From assembly GCF_030013205.1 (NCBI RefSeq), contig NZ_CP122648.1: a stretch of 64,000 bases of DNA, one strand, 5' to 3'. Positions 31,110-59,817 of this stretch are shown in pieces. The notes under the pieces are model-generated. The model ran no database searches. It had not been told where the DNA came from and was given only the letters and a program-made list of their open reading frames with translations. This DNA is from Escherichia coli. GTDB lineage: Bacteria; Pseudomonadota; Gammaproteobacteria; Enterobacterales; Enterobacteriaceae. Made by a program: the position numbers and the translations under genes. Positions within the stretch are counted from its first letter, which is position 1. The number at the start of each line of letters is the position of its first letter.

Positions 31110-32095
31110 GTAGCAGGGCAAGATTACGAAAGCCCGCTCCCCGCAAGGACTGACGTCAGGTAGTTTCTGTCCATGGCTGCCCTTTCCATTCAAACGTGAA
31201 ATCAATAAGTTCATCAGGGACATCGCAAACAATATGAAGACGGATTTCTTCTCTGCCGTGACTTTTTTCACTAATTGCGTAACTGTCATGCTCTGGATTA
31301 TTTAATTCTTTCAGTGGGAATTTTTCCTCAAAGGCTTTATTAAGCCGCCCCTGATTTCCTTTTACAGCGAATAAATAATCACCGCCCTGTTTTTGTATCT
31401 TCTCTGCGATATCTTTCTGGCAACCCATCGCATCAGTTGTGATAATTTTTCCTTTAATATCCAGCATGTTAAGAAGTTCAGGGATAGCTGTGATCTCATT
31501 GGATTTCTTATCCGTCCTGATCTGTCCGATGACAAGACTGTGCATTGTTGAGAACGCACTAATGACATGAATCGCTCCCCTGCGGCGACTCTTGTCATAA
31601 GAATGCCGGAGCGTTTTTCCATCAATTGCAATAACGTCTTTATCATCTGAAGAATGGCAGTCACGCATCCAGTTAATAAAGCACTCGTGAAATTTTGAAG
31701 GACTGATACAGGATACAACTCTGGCGATGGTATCGTGAACAGGAATACCATTTTAAAAATCACCATATTGTTTTAAAAAATCGAGATGTGTTTCCCCAAA
31801 ATCCTCTATATCTTCCCAACCGTCTGCACAAGAAATAACGGCACAAATAGTCAACAGTAGAATATCCGACAATTTATGTTCCACTTTCCTGGCATGTCTG
31901 TAATCGGAAGTAATAGAAATATGTTCCATCAATTTTTTAAGTTCCATTTTGTTCTCCTTAATTATGTAAGGAGTATTTGATCATGTATAAGCAATAAAAA
32001 AGAGCTTCAGGTAATGAGGAATATCTCAATTTTTAAACATAAAATGCGAATTGTTTAGTACAAAAAAGCAGCGTTACGTGATCTTTCCCTGGTGA
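31110..32095 (-). mobile_element. H-repeat (ISAs1-family) element copy 1, degenerate
   Basis: terminal sequences shared with copy 2 (gcagggNaagattacgaaagcccgc at one end, gatctttccc at the other); internal deletion of about 385 bp plus a TAA nonsense codon. Confidence 0.8.
31156..31947 (-). pseudogene. H-repeat-associated (ISAs1-type) transposase, disrupted
   Basis: ORF track fragments 31753..31947 and 31156..31668 same frame; ...YGDF then TAA where copy 2 has GAA; C-terminus replaced after FTFEWKG by deletion. Confidence 0.8.
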
Positions 32096-32545
32096 CAGTC
32101 ACGGCAGCGGAATCGATCATGTCCTTTTGGGTTCTTCCCGTGACGGTAAACCTGAACGGACTGGCAACGGGGGCAATGAAGGTTAACAGTGACCATGAAG
32201 GAACCTTAAAAGCGAGTATTATACCACTCATTCAACTAATTGGAGGCATTACCCATCCCTTTTAACACGATCTTTTCCATATAAAACAGGAATAAGTTGC
32301 TCCATGTTGTAATTTTTATATTTTTCATGCAAAAACAACTCCCTGCTTTCTTTTCGTCTTTTATTCACATCAATAATTTTCATATCAACTATCTCATTTT
32401 CTTTGCTATCTTATCTTTTGAATGGCGTGAATGCTTGCCCCCCATGCTTTCATTGTGCTTTTTGCCTCTAACGGTGAATATTTACCTTGTGAAATTAATT
32501 CCTCAAGCATCTCACATCTGCTCTAGTAAAGAAATAGTTCATATT

Positions 32546-32995
32546 CTATAGTTTAATGACCTCGCCAAGCTTACCCCCCTCATCGGCATAAAAAGCACTC
32601 AAATACAGATCACCCTTATTTTCTTTTGTAAACTCAAATTCCTCTATTAGAGAGTAATGTTCATATGTAGAGCGATAGGTTAAAACCACAACATTATGAT
32701 TAATTACATTACTCGCCAATAAGTTTATTTTATTTAATCTTCCAAACACCTGTTTTTTTTCTTTCATTATCGTTATAAAAACATCTTCCGATGTTGCTTT
32801 TTTAAATTCACTGCTTGTGTCAGAGTAGATTTTGTCCACTTCATTCTGATTGTATAGTTTTTGAATGATAACAACTTTATCCTGCGCAATTTTTCTAATA
32901 TCAGCATCATTCTTTATTACATTATGACTAATGTCTTTCCCCAAAAACATAAAAACCACTACTGCTACAATAACAATACTCACTTTTATTTTCAT
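32546..32995 (-). CDS. candidate immunity protein for orphan Rhs tip 2; N-terminal signal peptide or membrane anchor
   Basis: 149 aa, MKIKVSIVIVAVVVFMFLG hydrophobic N-terminus; AT-rich; start 4 bp from upstream toxin stop. Confidence 0.55.
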   Translation of the reverse strand: MKIKVSIVIVAVVVFMFLGKDISHNVIKNDADIRKIAQDKVVIIQKLYNQNEVDKIYSDTSSEFKKATSEDVFITIMKEKKQVFGRLNKINLLASNVINHNVVVLTYRSTYEHYSLIEEFEFTKENKGDLYLSAFYADEGGKLGEVIKL

Positions 32996-32998
32996 AAA

Positions 32999-33780
32999 TT
33001 AATATCCTGCCAATTGTGATAAACACCATAAACTTTGCGAACAGGTAAGTTCGCCAACAAAACCACCAAATCCGGGACCAATACTCACTGTGCCTGAATT
33101 TTTTCCGTCTGCATCCCTAACCCCTGCAATGGAATATTTTTTCAAATAACCACCTGTAGATATATAACCTTTAGTAAGATACTCCCCCGGAGAGATTTTT
33201 GCTTGCGATGCTGTACCTGACAAAGAAATACCGATTGCAGAACCAACACCATTATGTTCACACAAAGTATAATACATACAAACATCCAGATTAGCTGGAG
33301 CTCTGTCATTCCCCCCAACTGTTGCTCCCACAGCAAAACTAGCCCCTGTAAATTCGTCACCATTAAAACTTATATCAATAGATCCTGAACCAGGGAAAGG
33401 AGTAGTATAAATTTTAGAAGTCACATCCGAAGGAGCGTTATTATTATACATAGAGTTATTCATAAATTCGCCCCAATTGCTATATAATCCCAAAGCATCT
33501 GTGTATGCAACAGGATTCAACGGATACTGATAAAAATTCCATCCCCACTTCAGCCCAATCGGATCATGAGTGATATACCGCCCCTGCAGCGGGTCATAAT
33601 AGCGGTGGCGGTTGTAATACAGGCCGGACTCCTCATCATACTGCTGCCCCGGCAGGCGGACAAGCTGCTGCAGCTGATGCGGGTTCTCTTCATTCAGCAG
33701 GTTGCCCCACTCATCGTATTCTGCGCACCATTCTGTTGCCCCTTCCGTGCTGATAAGCGCCAGCGGCAGGTTATTCGGTT
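32999..33780 (-). CDS. orphan Rhs C-terminal tip 2 (core-end remnant plus glycine-rich toxin domain), no ATG/GTG start
   Basis: minus-strand frame open from about 33780 to stop at 32999; encodes ...[73 protein letters not shown]...[13 protein letters not shown] then a divergent 160-aa domain; ORF track lists the TTG-initiated part 32999..33520. Confidence 0.75.
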
Positions 33781-33893
33781 TGCGTCGTTGAGTTCACTAC
33801 ACTAAAACTCCGTGCCCATATAACCCAAGTCGGAGGCATGCCTTCCTCTGGTTCGTTCCATCTAAAATGTCTATACATAACATGGTTATTCAA

Positions 33894-34286
33894 TTATTTT
33901 TCTTTGAATTTATTCTCAATCCAGCTGTCTTTATACCTGATGAAAATTTGACACTCACCAATATTATCAATGCCTCCAGAATTTGTATTTGGAATTTGTC
34001 CAACTGCAACTATAGTTGATTCAAAATATTCAACATTGACATTATCTGTAATTATTGAAATTATATAATCATCTGGAATAGAGCCATTAGGAGTTATATT
34101 GAAGAAACTAACACCTGAAAATACCAAATAACCATCTTCTAAGTCTTCATTATCATAAAAATTCCATTCTGTTGTACCATAGGCTATCCTTGAGATTAAA
34201 TTAACCTGAATTCTAATTTGTTTACTCCATAAATCAAATTCAATTTTTTTTATTGCTCGATCACCAAGATATATTCTATCAAACAT
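33894..34286 (-). CDS. candidate immunity protein for orphan Rhs tip 1 (cytoplasmic)
   Basis: 130 aa, no signal peptide, AT-rich, starts 14 bp after upstream toxin stop. Confidence 0.55.
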   Translation of the reverse strand: MFDRIYLGDRAIKKIEFDLWSKQIRIQVNLISRIAYGTTEWNFYDNEDLEDGYLVFSGVSFFNITPNGSIPDDYIISIITDNVNVEYFESTIVAVGQIPNTNSGGIDNIGECQIFIRYKDSWIENKFKEK

Positions 34287-34300
34287 ATTATCCCCCTATT

Positions 34301-35203
34301 CTAAAAATACTCAGGCATTCCGCACATTATATCAGCCTCATCTTGATTGCTTCCCGTTGACATTTCAACATACATAGCATAATAACATTGTCCAAACGTT
34401 CCCTCTCTACATGATCTAAGTGTAAACATATGTAAAACAGAACTAAAAAAGCTTAGTGTACCGAGTGATCTAATACCGATATGTGCGGCACTACTATTCC
34501 ATGGTACAACGCGACCATTAACATCAAGGGATGGACCTTGGCCTTTCATACCGCTACCTGTTCCTGGTAAATGTGCATGTGCATGTGGTGTTGAATTGTT
34601 TGCATGCCCTATTGGATTAAGCCTATAAGCATTTGAATTATTCTGATAAAGAGTGTGAGTATCTGCACTTCCTGGATTACTGGGGGGATACGGGATTGTT
34701 CTGCCACCTACCGGTTCAACCATAATATTGCCTTTAGAATCACCTATAAACCTACCAACAGGTTGTTGAGTTATAGGATCAATAGTACAGGATTGACTTA
34801 CAGGTTTTTGTCTGGGAGAAGGTAATGATAATAGATCTAATCCCAAAGGGTCTATATACTGAACCGGATTCAACGGATACTGATAAAAATTCCATCCCCC
34901 CTTCAGTCCAATCGGATCCTGAGTGATATACCGCCCCTGCAGCGGGTCATAATAGCGGTGGCGGTTGTAATAGAGGCCGGACTCCTCATCATACTGCTGA
35001 CCCGGCAGGCGGATGAGCTGCTGCAGTTGATGCGGGTTCTCTTCATTCAGCAGGTTGCCCCACTCATCGTATTCTGCGCACCATTCTGTTGCCCCTTCCG
35101 TGCTGATAAGCGCCAGCGGCAGGCCGCGATGGTCGCAGTGGTACAGGTGGATTTTTCGCGCCGGCGTGTACACCGGGTCCATCTGGTTTTGCATCTGCGT
35201 CAC
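34301..35203 (-). CDS. orphan Rhs C-terminal tip 1 (core-end remnant plus unclassified toxin domain)
   Basis: 300 aa; first about 115 residues near-identical to rhsC core end up to [13 protein letters not shown], then unique 185 aa; begins with GTG exactly at H-repeat copy 2 boundary. Confidence 0.75.
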
Positions 35204-35204
35204 C

Positions 35205-36495
35205 GCAGGGAAAGATTACGAAAGCCCGCTCCCAGCAAGGACTGACGCCAGATAGTTTCTGTCCATGGCTGCTTTTCGCATCTTACGTCTTAACCCTGCC
35301 TTGAATACCTTATCATTCGTCAAAATATTAATAGCAATGTGCCGTATCCCTGAAAATAATTCTGCTGCATTTCCTCTTCTTATTTTGCAGTCGTCTTCAT
35401 TCATTACCACGTCCAGACGCCAGTGCAGCTTATTCTCCACGTGCCAGTGGTTTCGGATTGCTGTGGCGAACTTTTCTGCGGTTAAATCAGCAGAACTGAT
35501 ATAATATCTGACCGTCATTTCTGGCTCTTTCTTTTGTTCTGCTATTATTGACCGAAAGGAGACTGCCACGCATAATTTCTTCATTCCTTTCCATTCAAAC
35601 GTGAAATCAATAAGTTCATCAGGGACATCGCAAACAATGTGAAGACGGATTTCTTCTTTGCCGTGACTCTTTTCACTTATTTCGTAACTGTCATGCTTTG
35701 GATTATTTAATTCTTTCAGCGGAAATTTTCCCTCAAAGGCTTTATTTAGTCGTCCCTGATTTCCTTTTACAGCGAATACATAATCACCGCCCTGTTTTTG
35801 TATCTTCTCTGCAATATCTTTCTGGCAACCCATCGCATCAGTTGTGATGATTTTTCCTTTAATATCCAACATGTTAAGAAGTTCAGGGATAGCTGTGATT
35901 TCATTGGATTTCTCATCCGTCCTGATCTGTCCGATGACCAGACTGTGCATTGTTGAGAACGCACTAATGACATGAATCGCTCCCCTGCGGCGACTCTTGT
36001 CATAAGAATGCCGGAGCGTTTTTCCATCAATTGCAATAACGTCTTTATCATCTGAAGAATGGCAGTCACGCATCCAGTTAATAAAGCACTCGTGAAATTT
36101 TGCAGGACTGATACAGGATACAACTCTGGCAATGGTATCGTGAACAGGAATACCATTTTCAAAATCACCATATTGCTTCAAAAAATCGAGATGTGTTTCC
36201 CCAAAATCCTCTATATCTTCCCAGCATTCTGCACCAGAAATAACGGCACAAATAGTCAACAGTAGAATATCCGACAATTTATGTTCCACTTTCCAGGCTT
36301 GTCTTTAATCGAGGATAATAGAAATATGTTCCATCAATTTTTTAAGTTCCATTTTGTTCTACTTAATTATGTAAGGAGTATTTGATCATGTATACGCAAT
36401 AAAAAACAGCTTCAGGTAATGAGGAATATCTCAATTTTTAAACATAAAATGCGAATTACTTAGTACAAAAAAGCAGCGTTACGTGATCTTTCCCT
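35205..36495 (-). mobile_element. H-repeat (ISAs1-family) element copy 2
   Basis: about 1.3 kb; same terminal sequences as copy 1; same orientation as copy 1. Confidence 0.8.
35216..36360 (-). pseudogene. H-repeat-associated transposase with in-frame TAA at codon 15 (remaining ORF 357 aa)
   Basis: [19 protein letters not shown], then ORF track 35216..36289 from a GTG; N-terminal segment carries several substitutions relative to copy 1. Confidence 0.7.
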
Positions 36496-41624: not shown

Positions 41625-41658
41625 AAAAAAAACCGCCAGCGTTTCCGCTGGCGGTTTT
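41625..41658 (-). terminator. bidirectional intrinsic terminator downstream of ybfA
   Basis: A8-ccgccagcg-tttc-cgctggcgg-T4. Confidence 0.75.
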
Positions 41659-55127: not shown

Positions 55128-55143
55128 GCCAGCCGGAACGAGA

Positions 55144-55170
55144 AAAGCCAACCTGCGGGTTGGCTTTTTT
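55144..55170 (+). terminator. intrinsic terminator after fur
   Basis: aaaagccaacc-tgcg-ggttggctttttt. Confidence 0.8.
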
Positions 55171-55210
55171 ATACACGGGAAATAAGAAAAGCGAGAGTTA
55201 CAGCTCTCAC

Positions 55211-55537
55211 TTATTTGTTATTACTGCGAATTTCCTGCCAGACCTTATCACAATCGGCTTTTACCGCCTGGTCATTACCGGTTTGCGTTGCGCGCAGACA
55301 CTGCTGATAATCCAGTACGCGTACACTTTCCTGGTCGGCAAAATGCTGATGTTGTTTCTCTTTCTTCAGCACGTTTAACACGCTCTGGCAGGCTTCAATT
55401 TTTTCCGGCGAACCTTGCGCGGTGTTAATACAGGCGCTGTATGCCTCTTTCAGACGACTGTCTTCCTGTGGCGCGGTTGATTGCGCACAAGCTACCAGCC
55501 CCGATGCCATTATGGCGATGAGAATCAGTTTTTTCAT
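55211..55537 (-). CDS. chiQ: lipoprotein ChiQ
   Basis: 108 aa; signal peptide with LVAC lipobox. Confidence 0.9.
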   Translation of the reverse strand: MKKLILIAIMASGLVACAQSTAPQEDSRLKEAYSACINTAQGSPEKIEACQSVLNVLKKEKQHQHFADQESVRVLDYQQCLRATQTGNDQAVKADCDKVWQEIRSNNK

Positions 55538-55586: not shown

Positions 55587-56993
55587 TCAGAAGATGGTGA
55601 ATGGTGCGATTACCATAAATTTCACGTCACGCTCATCCTGGAAAATGTTGCCGTAACCACCGCCCCAGCTTGGGATGTCGGAGTGGTTGTCGTATTCGGT
55701 GAAGTGCAGTTTGAACATCGTGCCTTTGGCGCGACCGTCCTGAATGGTGTAGACCGCATCCAGGCTGTAGGCAGACTCTTCAATAGTCCGGTTTTTGTCG
55801 TAGTACGCATCCGGATTGCTCTGCCAGGTAGCGGGTTTAGCATCCCATGCGTAAACGTAGGAAGCGCCGATGGCGAAGCCTGGAAGATTCCAGTTTTTCA
55901 GGTCATACATCGCACCGAAGAAGACCGCTTTTTCGCCGTTGGCGTTGAAGTCAGAACGGTTATCCCACCAGATATCCAGGCGACCGTTCGAGGAAGCGTA
56001 GGTTGGAGTCATACGTTGCAGGAAGTATCCCTGCTGACCGTCGGCTTTAACCCAGGTGCCTTCCAGACGCAAATCCACTACATCAGCCGCCCGGTAACCA
56101 AAGGTCAACGCTTGCAGCCAGGCAGTGCCGTCGTAAAGGTCGTTGACGCTGCGATCGTCAACTTTATCGCGCGTACCGTAGAACTGGTAGCTGGTGGTTA
56201 ACGGGCTACCGGCGATATCAAATTTGTAGCTGGCTTTGGCAAAGTATTGATCGATATACCCTTCCGCCTGACCAAATGCTGCTTCCAGTACGAAGTTATT
56301 TTTGAAGTCGTATTTCGCACCGATGGAGTGCAGATAATCAACTTTGGTGGTTTTATCGTTCTGATAAAACTCATCCATTTCCAGATGCCACGGTGCTTTG
56401 TATTCGTTGGTCCACATGTAGGAGAAACTCAACGCACCCGCATCGCCGTAATCAAAATTCGCCCCGGCTTCCGCACCCTGATAAGTACCCGGCATAAAGC
56501 TCCAGTGCGGCGCTAACAGCGTCTGACCGGTTGGCTGAATATAACCTGCCCTCGCCCACACCGGACCGTATTTAAATTTGGCCGCTGCTTTATACAGGCT
56601 TATACCGCTTTTGTCGCCGGACCAGTCTTCGTCATAGGCTTTATTGCTTTTTGAAAACGCGATTTCGTTCGGGTGAGAGCTGTCACCGTTTTCCGCCATT
56701 TCAATCGCCGTAAACGCAGCAATATCAAGGCCGAACATATCAGCAGCATAACCAGACTGAAAATCGAGGTTGGCGTTCCAGGTGGAGTGAGAAAGGTTGG
56801 TTTTGTATTTGTCGCCGTCGGTAACATCTTTACGGTCGCGTTCACGCTGCCAGTAATAGATACCGCCGGTTAAGGTTGAATCGTCGATGAATCCTTCGGC
56901 GCGAGCCTCCGGCATTGCCATAAAGCCCGACATTGCTGTAACACCGGCGATAGCCAGCGCCAGCGTACTACGTTTGCCACTAAACGTACGCAT
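55587..56993 (-). CDS. chiP: chitoporin (OprD-family outer-membrane porin)
   Basis: 468 aa; signal peptide, C-terminal aromatic residue. Confidence 0.93.
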
Positions 56994-57359
56994 GGGTTAA
57001 TCCTCTTTGACGTATAAATTGCTGCACCAAAGGTGAACAGCGAAAAAAATAAAAATTAAAAAAGTAGCGTTGAGAAAAGTCTCGCTGACTACAGGAACAG
57101 ACTATTTTTCGCGACGCGAATTATCAATCTCTTTCTGTAACCAGAATGTAAGAACATGAGCAACCGCACATATTTTGATGATTTTTGTTACAAGGCTTAA
57201 GTTTGCAGTTGAAAGGCTTGCAGAAGAATAAAAACGTGAAATTCCAGCAAGATGAAAGCGGTTACATTTTATTTAATTATGTTTTGTGATTTTAAATTTG
57301 TTTTATGGATAAATTGCGAAGCGGAATTAATTCGCGAAGAAAAGCAGAATAAATATCCT

Positions 57360-58060
57360 CCGGCATAGCCGGAGGTTTTTCAAATGCGCCTATAAGGCTC
57401 TCTTACCAGCCGCGCCCTAACAGGCGCACACGATCTGACATTTGCATCCAACTTCGTTACTTACGGCCCGTAAACGGGCTGCCCGGATAGGGAATCGATA
57501 ACTGCTCTCCCATTTTATCCTCTTCAAGCTGGTGCTTTATGTAATCCTGTATCTTCGCCGTGTTCTTACCCACCGTATCGACGTAGTACCCTCTGCACCA
57601 GAACTCTCTGTTCCTGTATTTGAATTTCAAATCACCAAACTGCTCGTAAAGCATCAGACTGCTTTTCCCTTTCAGATATCCCATAAAGCCGGATACGCTC
57701 ATTTTGGGCGGGATCTCCACAAGCATATGGATATGATCTGCACAGCATTCAGCTTCAAGAATCCGTACGCTTTTCCACTCACACAGCTTTCTCAAAATAC
57801 TGCCTATTGCTCTACGCTTCTCTCTGTAGAACACTTGTCTTCGGTATTTTGGCGCAAAAACTATGTGATATTTACAGTTCCATCGGGTGTGCGCTAAGCT
57901 CTTTTCGTTCCCCATTGGGACCCCCTTTTGATTTCTTGTTTGACACTTGCAGTTGCCAGACCGCAAGGTGTTTTAACAAATCAAAAGGGGTTTTAATAAC
58001 TGGCTCAAAGCTGAAAGCTTTCCGGAACCCCCAGCCTAGCTGGGGGTTTTCTGTGCACAA
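57360..58060 (-). mobile_element. IS200 (IS200/IS605 family)
   Basis: Y1 transposase ORF; perfect hairpin cccccagc-cta-gctggggg at 58028-58046 near the tnpA-proximal end; span estimated from canonical about 0.7-kb length. Confidence 0.8.
57457..57915 (-). CDS. tnpA: IS200 transposase TnpA (HUH/Y1)
   Basis: ORF track 57457..57966; start MGNEKSLAHTRWNCKYHIVFAPKYRR (152 aa); HIHMLVEIPP HuH motif. Confidence 0.93.
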   Translation of the reverse strand: MGNEKSLAHTRWNCKYHIVFAPKYRRQVFYREKRRAIGSILRKLCEWKSVRILEAECCADHIHMLVEIPPKMSVSGFMGYLKGKSSLMLYEQFGDLKFKYRNREFWCRGYYVDTVGKNTAKIQDYIKHQLEEDKMGEQLSIPYPGSPFTGRK

Positions 58061-58086
58061 AAAAACGCCGCAGAGCGCGGCGTTTT
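58061..58086 (-). terminator. intrinsic terminator after glnS
   Basis: A5-cgccgc-agagc-gcggcg-T4. Confidence 0.75.
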
Positions 58087-58106
58087 GGATTGTTTGCATG
58101 TTTCAT

Positions 58107-58140
58107 GCCGGATGCGGCGTAAAAGCCTCACCCGGCCTGG
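58107..58140. repeat. REP element
   Basis: tgccggatgcggcgtaaaagcctcacccggcctgg matches remembered REP consensus. Confidence 0.7.
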
Positions 58141-58152
58141 TAGAACTTAAAA

Positions 58153-59817
58153 TTACTCGCCTACTTTCGCCCAGGTATCACGCAGCCCAACGGTGCGGTT
58201 AAATACCGGTTTTTCCGCCGTAGAATGGCGGCTGTCGAGGCAGAAATAACCTTCACGCTCAAACTGGAATGCTTTACCCGCTACCGCGTCTTTCAGAGAC
58301 GGTTCAGCAAAGCCCTGTTTGATCACCAGCGATTCCGGGTTAATCACCGACAGGAAATCATCCGCAGCACCTGGGTTCGGCACGCTGAACAGACGATCAT
58401 ACAGGCGGATTTCAACCGGCAGCGCATGTGCCGCGCTCACCCAGTGAATAACGCCTTTCACTTTACGACCATCTGCCGGATCTTTGCTTAAGGTGTCGGC
58501 GTCATAAGTACAGAAAATGGTGGTGATATTGCCTTCGGCATCTTTCTCCACGCGTTCAGCCTTAATGACGTAAGCATTACGCAGACGCACTTCTTTACCC
58601 AGCACCAGACGTTTGTACTGCTTGTTAGCTTCTTCGCGGAAATCGGCGCGGTCGATCCAAATCTCACCGCTAAACGGCACCTGACGGCTACCCATTTCCG
58701 GTTTGTTCGGATGGTTCGGCATGGTAACAATTTCGCCTTCGCCCTGGTAGTTTTCGATAACCAGTTTCACCGGATCGATAACCGCCATTGCGCGCGGGGC
58801 GTTTTCGTTGAGATCTTCACGGATGCAGGATTCCAGCGACGCCATCTCAATGGTGTTGTCCTGCTTGGTCACGCCGATGCGTTTGCAGAACTCACGAATA
58901 GAAGCCGCAGTGTAACCACGACGACGCAGACCGGAAATGGTCGGCATACGCGGGTCATCCCAGCCTTCAACATGCTTGTCGGTCACCAGCAGGTTCAGCT
59001 TACGCTTGGACATCACGGTGTATTCCAGATTCAGGCGCGAGAATTCGTACTGGCGCGGGTGAACAGGAATGGTGATGTTGTCCAGTACCCAGTCGTACAG
59101 ACGACGGTTGTCCTGGAACTCAAGCGTACACAGAGAGTGCGTAATACCTTCCAGCGCATCGCTGATGCAATGTGTGAAGTCGTACATCGGGTAGATGCAC
59201 CACTTGTTGCCAGTCTGGTGGTGTTCAGCAAATTTAATGCGGTACAGCACCGGATCGCGCATTACGATAAACGGCGACGCCATATCGATTTTCGCACGCA
59301 GGCAGGCTTTACCTTCTTCAAAACCGCCGGCACGCATTTTTTCGAACAGCGCCAGGTTCTCTTCGACGCTACGGTCGCGGTACGGGCTGTTTTTACCCGG
59401 CTGCGTCAGGGTGCCACGGTATTCGCGGATCTGTTCCGGCGTCAGTTCATCAACATACGCCAGGCCTTTATTGATCAGTTCGATCGCATAGGCGTGGAGC
59501 TGATCAAAATAATCGGAGGAGTAACGGACGTTACCAGACCAGTGAAAACCTAACCACTCAACGTCGTTTTTGATCGACTCAACATACTCGATATCTTCTT
59601 TTACCGGGTTAGTGTCGTCGAAACGCAGGTTGCACTGGCCTTTATAGTCCTGGGCGATCCCGAAGTTCAGGCAGATAGATTTCGCATGCCCAATATGCAG
59701 ATAGCCATTCGGCTCCGGCGGGAAACGGGTGTGTACTGTGGTGTGCTTACCACTGGCCAGATCTTCATCGATGATCTGACGGATAAAGTTAGTCGGGCGG
59801 GCTTCTGCCTCACTCAT
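58153..59817 (-). CDS. glnS: glutaminyl-tRNA synthetase
   Basis: 554 aa; HIGH motif as [19 protein letters not shown]. Confidence 0.98.

What the first reader, a model, noticed from the sequence alone, without database searches (positions are those of the whole stretch)
57360..58060. IS200 copy inserted between chiP and glnS, next to a REP element and the glnS terminator
A 152-aa Y1/HUH transposase essentially matching remembered IS200 TnpA lies at 57457-57915 (minus), with the characteristic perfect hairpin at 58028-58046. I do not recall any IS200 in K-12, so this is strain-specific. It sits about 20 bp from the glnS terminator and about 50 bp from a REP, consistent with the family's preference for hairpin-containing targets. 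It is also about 370 bp upstream of the chiP start, so it could affect the chiP control region.
Basis: partly seen in the sequence, partly recalled or inferred. Interest (0 to 1): 0.45.

Follow-up and report, generated by a model that had tools for sequence, protein, structure and literature searches.

The report
Ordinary IS200C copy behind glnS terminator
This is an intact copy of IS200C, a small and well-catalogued jumping gene, inserted right after the transcription stop signal of glnS and well upstream of the chiP promoter; it is ordinary and already annotated in public genomes.

Summary
Window 57348-58059 (minus strand) is a complete IS200C element. Its unambiguous core is 709 bp (57350-58058), and 2-3 further T/A bases cannot be assigned to either end. 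It has an intact 152-aa Y1/HUH transposase (Pfam Y1_Tnp 3.8e-38; NCBIfam transpos_IS200 1.9e-43). A full-length Rfam STnc490 match (146 bits) covers the left-end hairpin and the 5'UTR, and there is a right-end hairpin. K-12 and close relatives have an empty site.

- The element is not about 20 bp from the glnS terminator. Its left end directly abuts the terminator's T-tract.
- IS200C is not rare. At least one near-full copy occurs in 2063 of 5426 complete E. coli genomes, although only 23 carry it at this site. Those 23 are a pig-associated lineage plus CFT073, most simply explained as two independent insertions.

All 12 E. coli IS200C sites I read, and 78 of 102 left-end flanks from other bacteria (0.5% at random positions), show the same hairpin plus T-run directly before the left end. 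The chiP transcription start (57092) lies about 256 bp beyond the right end, and nothing between them is altered, so an effect on chiP is unlikely. Low interest; already known.

The parts
57348..58059 (-). Complete IS200C insertion sequence. The unambiguous core is 57350-58058 (709 bp); 2-3 extra T/A bases cannot be assigned to one end.
   Evidence: Occupied-versus-empty site comparison at glnS-chiP in two lineages gives +712 bp. The core is 99.3-99.9% identical to copies annotated IS200C at other loci. RefSeq annotates tnpA here as 'IS200/IS605-like element IS200C family transposase'.
57457..57915 (-). tnpA, an intact 152-aa Y1 (HUH) transposase with HUH at H61-I62-H63 and the predicted catalytic Tyr at Y110.
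   Evidence: PDB homologues are 2ec2, 2f4f, the IS608 TnpA 2a6m and the ISDra2 TnpA 2xm3, with E from 4e-23 to 2e-16. The protein is WP_000526135.1, the same accession annotated at several other loci.
58026..58048 (-). Left-end hairpin (10-bp stem, 3-nt loop). In Salmonella IS200 this is the bidirectional terminator that shields tnpA from outside transcription.
   Evidence: ssDNA fold z = -5.35 for the segment. The function is taken from PMC4513863, which places the terminator at nt 12-34 of IS200. That matches this position if nt 1 is 58059.
57922..57990 (-). Stem-loop in the tnpA 5'UTR that pairs the Shine-Dalgarno region (AAAAGGGG), repressing translation.
   Evidence: RNA fold -40.4 kcal/mol, z = -3.9. 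It lies within the Rfam STnc490 match 57925-58048. The role is as described in PMC4513863.
57907..57996 (+). [quoted passage not shown]
   Evidence: Inference only. Coordinates were transferred from the description in PMC4513863 onto this copy; no expression data were available.
57357..57375 (-). Right-end hairpin (8-bp stem, 3-nt loop) followed by ATATTTATT. This is the subterminal structure of the right end and resembles a terminator.
   Evidence: It is identical in 12 of 12 E. coli copies read. In Y. pestis tandem copies, a second element sits directly after this motif.
58059..58086 (-). glnS intrinsic terminator (stem-loop 58062-58086, T-run 58059-58065 on the minus strand). This is the insertion target, and it is preserved intact.
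   Evidence: The same hairpin plus T6/T7 is present in the empty sites of K-12, SCU-482 and clone D i14.
58106..58138 (.). Single REP element between the glnS stop codon and the terminator.
   Evidence: It contains the REP core GCCGGATGCGGCG. There is a weak sub-threshold match to the REP-derived naRNA4, E=0.035. K-12 has three REPs at the homologous position.
56994..57092 (-). chiP 5'UTR (annotated as sRNA chiZ in K-12). The chiP transcription start maps to 57092, 256 bp beyond the IS right end.
   Evidence: K-12 RefSeq annotation; mapped onto the window.

Best explanation
This is an intact, autonomous IS200C element of the IS200 group of the IS200/IS605 family, carrying tnpA only. It most likely arrived by the family's single-strand 'peel-and-paste' Y1 transposition. 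The element's top strand (the tnpA sense strand, which is the window's minus strand) was pasted into the lagging-strand template immediately 3' of the T-tract that ends the glnS intrinsic terminator.

The glnS terminator is left intact, and the element's own left-end hairpin adds a second barrier to read-through. tnpA is expected to be kept nearly silent by a weak promoter, a 5'UTR stem-loop that hides the ribosome-binding site, and the antisense RNA art200. The insertion lies 256 bp upstream of the chiP transcription start and alters nothing between, so it is most likely neutral for glnS and chiP.

Shown here: identity, intactness, exact position, the empty sites, and recurrence of the terminator context. 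Inferred from the family: the single-strand mechanism, lagging-strand targeting, and the RNA-level repression.
For: - Identity and intactness.
- Ends and empty sites.
- Structures.
- Same context at other sites: in 12 of 12 E. coli IS200C sites read (11 loci), a G+C hairpin plus T-run lies directly 5' of GTGCAC, and the right end is always ...GGATATTTATT.
- Same context in other bacteria: 78 of 102 distinct left-end flanks pass a strict hairpin plus T-tail test, against 0.5% of random positions. Among T-rich tails, a hairpin is present in 83% of IS flanks against 8.7% at random.
- Independent same-site insertion: the CFT073 copy differs at 9 nt, and its ST73 relative clone D i14 has the same chiP and glnS proteins but an empty site.
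- Recent mobility: CFSAN018748 carries an extra copy at the ybfA terminator, where the window has the empty hairpin plus T8 site.
- Orientation: the window's + strand has negative GC skew, and glnS is on the + strand at 0.706 Mb in K-12. The IS top strand is therefore the lagging-strand template, as reported for the family (PMC5027513).
- Regulatory anatomy as in PMC4513863.
Against: - No transposition or expression data exist for this copy.
- IS200 is reputed to be almost immobile (PMC4513863, PMC12594629).
- The exact ends are ambiguous by 1-3 nt because they lie in T-runs. The inserted length is +712 bp at glnS-chiP but +711 bp at ybfA-rhs when compared with another strain's empty site.
- The terminator association could partly reflect survival of harmless insertions rather than target choice.
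Confidence: 0.92

Rival explanations
1. The position next to the terminator is not target choice. IS200 inserts more or less at random in A/T-rich DNA, and only copies that land harmlessly behind terminators, shielded from read-through, persist.
For: A preprint reads the excess of terminators upstream of IS200/IS605 elements as a trait that limits transposase expression and aids persistence (10.1101/2025.07.22.666184). T-runs without hairpins lie mostly in genes and promoters, where insertions would be purged.
Against: The junction is precise to the nucleotide. The left end starts directly after the T-run in 12 of 12 E. coli sites and in most of the 102 other flanks. Two independent events at glnS-chiP both leave exactly T7 between the stem and GTGCAC, although the empty sites have T6 and T7. 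Tandem IS1541 copies sit directly after the right-end hairpin plus ATATTTATT. Selection for 'somewhere behind a terminator' would scatter insertions across the intergenic region.
Confidence: 0.2
2. The copy is a dormant or domesticated relic that no longer moves. Its presence in two lineages reflects common descent or recombination rather than repeated insertion at a hotspot.
For: IS200 is described as essentially dormant, possibly domesticated for its sRNAs (PMC4513863, PMC12594629). The family excises precisely, so loss would leave no scar.
Against: The ORF and both ends are intact. Only 23 of 5426 genomes carry the site, so descent would need very many precise losses. The flanks of CFT073 and the pig lineage are lineage-specific (97% identity), each matches an empty-site relative, and the right-end junctions differ by one T. 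Copy number varies from 19 to 33 among the pig-lineage genomes, and one copy is polymorphic between the window strain and CFSAN018748.
Confidence: 0.1
3. The insertion changes chiP expression, for example by read-through or outward transcription from the right end, or by moving an upstream operator away.
For: tnpA points towards chiP. The right-end hairpin is followed by only a weak T-tail (ATATTTATT). chiP is transcriptionally repressed by NagC (PMC4098024), and a near-palindrome lies next to the right end at 57311-57340.
Against: The chiP start maps to 57092, 256 bp from the right end, and the whole stretch up to the insertion point is collinear with empty-site genomes. In empty sites the DNA beyond the insertion point is only the glnS terminator and REP. 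tnpA transcription is very weak in IS200 (PMC4513863). chiP is in any case silenced post-transcriptionally by ChiX.
Confidence: 0.08

Closest known systems
IS200C / IS200 of E. coli and Salmonella (IS200 group, IS200/IS605 family)
   Same: The size is about 710 bp with a single 152-aa tnpA. The left-end terminator hairpin falls at nt 12-34, and the 5'UTR stem-loop and STnc490/art200 region and the right-end hairpin are all present. The core is 99.3-99.9% identical to other copies annotated IS200C, and the protein accession WP_000526135.1 is identical.
   Different: Nothing substantive. It is 709-712 bp against the 707 bp quoted for Salmonella IS200. The ISfinder reference sequence could not be compared directly.
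IS1541 of Yersinia pestis
   Same: TnpA is 94-95% identical. The left-end hairpin 19-mer and the right-end motif are the same, and the placement directly after a hairpin plus T-run is the same.
   Different: The first left-end bases differ (GTGCCCAG against GTGCACAG). The host differs, and tandem copies occur in Y. pestis.
IS608 (Helicobacter pylori) and ISDra2 (Deinococcus), the mechanistic models of the family
   Same: They share the Y1 HUH transposase fold (PDB 2a6m and 2xm3, E about 1e-19 to 1e-16), subterminal hairpins instead of inverted repeats, insertion with the left end 3' of a short target, and a top strand on the lagging-strand template.
   Different: IS608 and ISDra2 also carry tnpB and use the defined targets TTAC and TTGAT. 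Here the target is a T-run, nearly always following a hairpin, and there is no tnpB.

Membership tests
IS200/IS605 family, IS200 group (IS200C) | Encodes a Y1 (HUH) transposase of about 150 aa with an HUH motif and a catalytic tyrosine | tested here: met
   Pfam Y1_Tnp 130.7 bits (cutoff 23) and NCBIfam transpos_IS200 147.7 bits (cutoff 55). HUH is at residues 61-63, and Y110 aligns with the Tyr of solved homologues.
IS200/IS605 family, IS200 group (IS200C) | tnpA only, with no tnpB; total length about 700-710 bp | tested here: met
   The inserted DNA is 709-712 bp and holds one family-matching ORF.
IS200/IS605 family, IS200 group (IS200C) | No terminal inverted repeats; subterminal hairpins at both the left and right ends | tested here: met
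   Left-end hairpin 58026-58048 and right-end hairpin 57357-57375. The two termini, GTGCAC... and ...ATATTTATT, are not inverted copies of each other.
IS200/IS605 family, IS200 group (IS200C) | IS200 left-end and 5'UTR RNA structure (Rfam RF01405 STnc490) | tested here: met
   146.4 bits against a gathering score of 56, model positions 1-124 of 124.
IS200/IS605 family, IS200 group (IS200C) | No target-site duplication; left end placed 3' of a short conserved target | tested here: inconclusive
   No duplication beyond T/A bases is seen, and the left end always follows a T-run. However, 2-3 T's cannot be assigned, and the inserted length is 712 bp at one site and 711 bp at another, so a 1-2 nt duplication of T cannot be strictly excluded.
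IS200/IS605 family, IS200 group (IS200C) | Near-identity to the named isoform IS200C | tested here: met
   The core is 99.3-99.9% identical over 709 bp to copies whose tnpA RefSeq names IS200C. The ISfinder reference itself is not available in these tools.
IS200/IS605 family, IS200 group (IS200C) | Single-strand transposition with the top strand on the lagging-strand template | tested here: inconclusive
   The orientation fits: the window's + strand has negative GC skew, and glnS is co-directional with replication in K-12. The mechanism itself is not testable with these tools.
Intrinsic (Rho-independent) terminator, as the target | G+C-rich stem-loop followed by a T-run, downstream of a co-oriented gene | tested here: met
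   Stem-loop 58062-58086 with T7 at 58059-58065, 67 bp after the glnS stop codon, conserved in K-12. Termination activity was not measured.
REP element | About 35-nt imperfect palindrome with the core GCCGGATGCGGCG, in extragenic DNA | tested here: inconclusive
   The core is present at 58107-58119, but two matches in the window are not above chance (7 of 100 shuffles reach two). The naRNA4 match is below threshold. K-12 has three such units at this position.

The most novel reading that the evidence does not exclude
IS200-group transposases may choose their target by structure. On this reading they recognise an intrinsic terminator (hairpin plus T-tract) exposed as single-stranded DNA on the lagging-strand template and integrate at a fixed distance from the stem. 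The conserved GAAAA 5' of the left-end hairpin would act as the guide for the T-run, and the element's own right end (hairpin plus ATATTTATT) would mimic the target, which would explain tandem copies. That would give IS200, long described as lacking a defined target, a precise and testable target rule. It would also explain why near-identical left ends appear in bacteria of many phyla without disrupting genes.
Probability: 0.5. Interest if true: 0.35.

Novelty: already known. Interest (0 to 1): 0.12.

Why it matters
It matters little in itself. The copy is already annotated in RefSeq genomes, including CFT073, and most likely does not alter glnS or chiP. It is useful as a lineage marker: this site is occupied in only 23 of 5426 complete genomes, and copy number ranges from 19 to 33 within the pig-associated lineage. 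It is also one clean example, with matched empty sites, of the rule that IS200-group elements land exactly at the end of intrinsic terminators. That rule has been reported statistically, but it could be tested mechanistically.

Tried and rejected
- I first assumed the whole window was CFSAN018748, because that record is 100% identical over 56700-58450. Aligning a second annotated IS200C of that record to the window failed. BLAST then showed that the window is a close relative lacking that copy. This turned into a useful empty-site comparison.
E. coli sites were therefore collected one by one.
- Plumbridge et al. 2014, on NagC control of chiP, is not held. NagC operator positions could not be placed, and only a secondary citation is available.
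- A literature search for the chiP/ybfM transcription start gave nothing usable. The K-12 chiZ annotation was used instead.
- The REP core pattern is not enriched in the window, so the REP call rests on the consensus and the K-12 homologous position.
- The simple promoter scan found only one weak site, at 57295-57266, fewer than the shuffles gave, and it was given no weight.
- Exact ends could not be fixed. T-run lengths give +712 bp at glnS-chiP and +711 bp at ybfA-rhs.
- Rfam's STnc490 model matches the tnpA-sense strand, whereas PMC4513863 describes STnc490/art200 as antisense. The hit was used only to locate the left end and 5'UTR.

Full report
**What is there.** The window is E. coli. On the minus strand the gene order is nagE (60019-61965), glnS (58153-59817), the element, chiP (55587-56993) and chiQ, with fur on the plus strand. 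The ORF at 57457-57915 (-) encodes 152 aa. It matches Pfam Y1_Tnp at 3.8e-38 over the full model and NCBIfam transpos_IS200 at 1.9e-43. Its closest solved relatives are Y1 transposases, including the IS608 and ISDra2 TnpA. The HUH motif is H61-I62-H63, and Y110 aligns with the catalytic tyrosine region. Rfam RF01405 (STnc490, the IS200 left end and 5'UTR) matches 57925-58048 (-) end to end at 146 bits, against a gathering score of 56. The 'perfect hairpin' is a 10-bp stem with a 3-nt loop at 58026-58048. A second hairpin, 57357-57375, marks the right end. The 5'UTR folds into the long stem-loop that pairs the Shine-Dalgarno region, as described for Salmonella IS200 in PMC4513863.

**Exact ends and the empty site.** I aligned the window with an empty-site relative that is 99% identical in the flanks (SCU-482), with a K-12-like strain, and with K-12 MG1655 itself. 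On the element's top strand the empty site reads GCCGCG-CTCT-GCGGCG TTTTTT CTGC. The occupied site reads GCGGCG TTTTTTT GTGCACAG...GGATATTTA TT CTGC. The unambiguous insert is therefore 57350-58058 (709 bp) plus three T's that cannot be assigned to either end. All 12 E. coli copies I read end in ...ATATTTATT and are preceded by T. With nt 1 at 58059 the hairpin also falls at nt 12-34, as published. The most likely extent is therefore 57348-58059. At a second site (ybfA-rhs) the difference from another strain's empty site is 711 bp rather than 712, so the ends remain uncertain by a base or two in homopolymer runs.

- The element does not lie about 20 bp from the glnS terminator. Its left end abuts the terminator's T-tract directly, and the terminator (stem-loop 58062-58086, T7 at 58059-58065) is left whole.
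- The REP (about 58106-58138) is about 47 bp away. K-12 has three REPs here and this strain has one.
- The chiP ATG is 355 bp from the right end.
- The chiP mRNA 5' end, taken from the K-12 annotation of the 5'UTR-derived sRNA chiZ, maps to 57092, which is 256 bp from the right end. Everything between is collinear with empty-site genomes.

**How common it is.** A copy of the element covering at least 80% of its length is present in 2063 of 5426 complete E. coli genomes, with up to 35 places per genome. Occupation of this particular site is rare, at 23 genomes:
- 15 records that are 100% identical, all from pigs (ETEC, O139:H1);
- GN25;
- three EC5xx pig isolates;
- four assemblies of CFT073.

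CFT073's copy differs from the window's at 9 of 709 bases, and its flanks are only 97% identical. Its ST73 relative clone D i14 encodes the same chiP and glnS proteins but has an empty site with T7. Two independent insertions at the same nucleotide position relative to the hairpin are the simplest reading.

The window strain is not CFSAN018748. That genome has a further IS200C at the ybfA terminator, where the window has the empty hairpin plus T8 site at 41625-41654. Pig-lineage genomes carry 19-33 places. The element has therefore moved recently in this lineage, despite IS200's reputation for dormancy.

**Target context.** In all 12 E. coli IS200C sites examined, the left end GTGCACAG is directly preceded by a G+C-rich hairpin and a T-run. 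The sites lie behind glnS (two events), mdoH, pgm, arcA, fbaB, lom, carB, plaP and uhpT, in the yedP-yodD interval, and at a Nissle island locus. At most of them the upstream gene has the same orientation as the element.

A scan of one genome per species for the 19-nt left-end hairpin returned 120 loci before hitting its limit. They come from Y. pestis (IS1541, TnpA 94-95% identical), Vibrio, Brenneria, Edwardsiella and gut MAGs of several phyla. Of 102 distinct IS200-type left-end flanks, 78 pass a strict test (stem of at least 5 bp, loop of 3-8 nt, at least 5 T in 8) at the right distance, against 0.5% of 20,000 random positions in the same loci. Given a T-rich tail, 83% have the hairpin, against 8.7% at random. 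Most of the 'failures' show imperfect hairpins by eye.

Across elements whose first left-end bases differ, GAAAA just 5' of the hairpin is nearly always conserved. By analogy with IS608 it is in the position of a guide for the T-run; this is inference. In Y. pestis, tandem copies have a left end directly after another copy's right-end hairpin plus ATATTTATT, so the right end looks like a target. A 2025-26 preprint already reports that terminator-like sequences are most strongly over-represented upstream of IS200/IS605 elements, so the association is not new.

**Orientation.** The window's plus strand has negative GC skew, and in K-12 glnS lies on the plus strand at 0.706 Mb, in the clockwise replichore (the replichore assignment is established knowledge). 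The element's top strand is therefore on the lagging-strand template, as reported for the family (PMC5027513).

**Consequences.** glnS keeps its terminator. The element's left-end hairpin, a bidirectional terminator in Salmonella IS200, adds a second block. The chiP promoter region is untouched. chiP is controlled by NagC and by the sRNA ChiX. I could not place the NagC operators because the primary paper is not held. A near-palindrome at 57311-57340 next to the right end remains on the chiP side of the insertion. I rate an effect on chiP as unlikely (about 0.08).

**Verdict.** It is a known element that is already annotated at this site in public genomes. Interest is low. The only mildly interesting point is how exact the terminator-end placement is and that it recurred independently; this is partly published and could be tested experimentally.

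Noticed in passing
window 41625-41654: This is the empty target site for another IS200C insertion: the ybfA terminator hairpin plus a T8 run. The close relative CFSAN018748 carries an IS200C exactly here (L141 40915-41626), so the element is polymorphic between near-identical strains. It also shows that the window does not come from CFSAN018748 itself.
   Followed up: yes
window 32092-35586 and about 33-41 kb: A low-GC region (about 0.45) holds an RHS core gene, a sel1-repeat gene and ISAs1/IS630 remnants. It is rearranged relative to CFSAN018748: about 3.5 kb of the window is unaligned, and short internal repeats align at 93-97%.
   Followed up: no
window 58095-58152 versus K-12 707758-707950 (L130): K-12 has three REP units (a BIME-like cluster) between the glnS stop codon and the terminator. 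The window strain and SCU-482 have one.
   Followed up: partly
window 56994-57092: The chiP 5'UTR is annotated in K-12 as the sRNA chiZ. The window has T7 where K-12 has T6 in the U-rich stretch of this UTR.
   Followed up: partly
window 57311-57340: The near-palindrome TTCGCGAATTAATTCCGCTTCGCAA lies next to the IS right end, about 220-250 bp upstream of the chiP start, and is conserved in empty-site genomes. Its function is unknown; it may be an operator.
   Followed up: no
L008-L089 (genome-contig loci): The exact 19-nt IS200 left-end hairpin CCCCCAGCTAGGCTGGGGG occurs in multi-copy elements in MAGs assigned to Bacillota, Peptococcaceae, Mailhella/Desulfovibrio, Oxalobacter, Saccharibacteria and Elusimicrobia, often at contig ends. 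TnpA is 66-80% identical to the window's where it is present. This points to very wide spread of one left-end design, although mis-binning of MAG contigs cannot be excluded.
   Followed up: partly
L090-L100, L034, L036, L037: In Ruminococcus and other Clostridia MAGs the same 19-mer sits in a different context (AATAAGCAT | 19-mer | TATTTCTTTAACGGGCGAAGCCC) and is not preceded by a terminator. TnpA there is 65-76% identical. This looks like another subgroup with a different end architecture.
   Followed up: no
L102, L103, L105, L119 (Yersinia pestis NCTC5923): These are tandem IS1541 copies. The left end of one starts 0-1 nt after the right-end motif ...CCTCCGGCTATGCCGGAGGATATTTATT of the other, as if the right end served as a target.
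   Followed up: partly
window 55137-55218 (-): A sub-threshold Rfam match to STnc370 (28.9 bits against 54, E=0.92) lies between fur and chiQ. It is essentially a terminator hairpin and is probably not meaningful.
   Followed up: no
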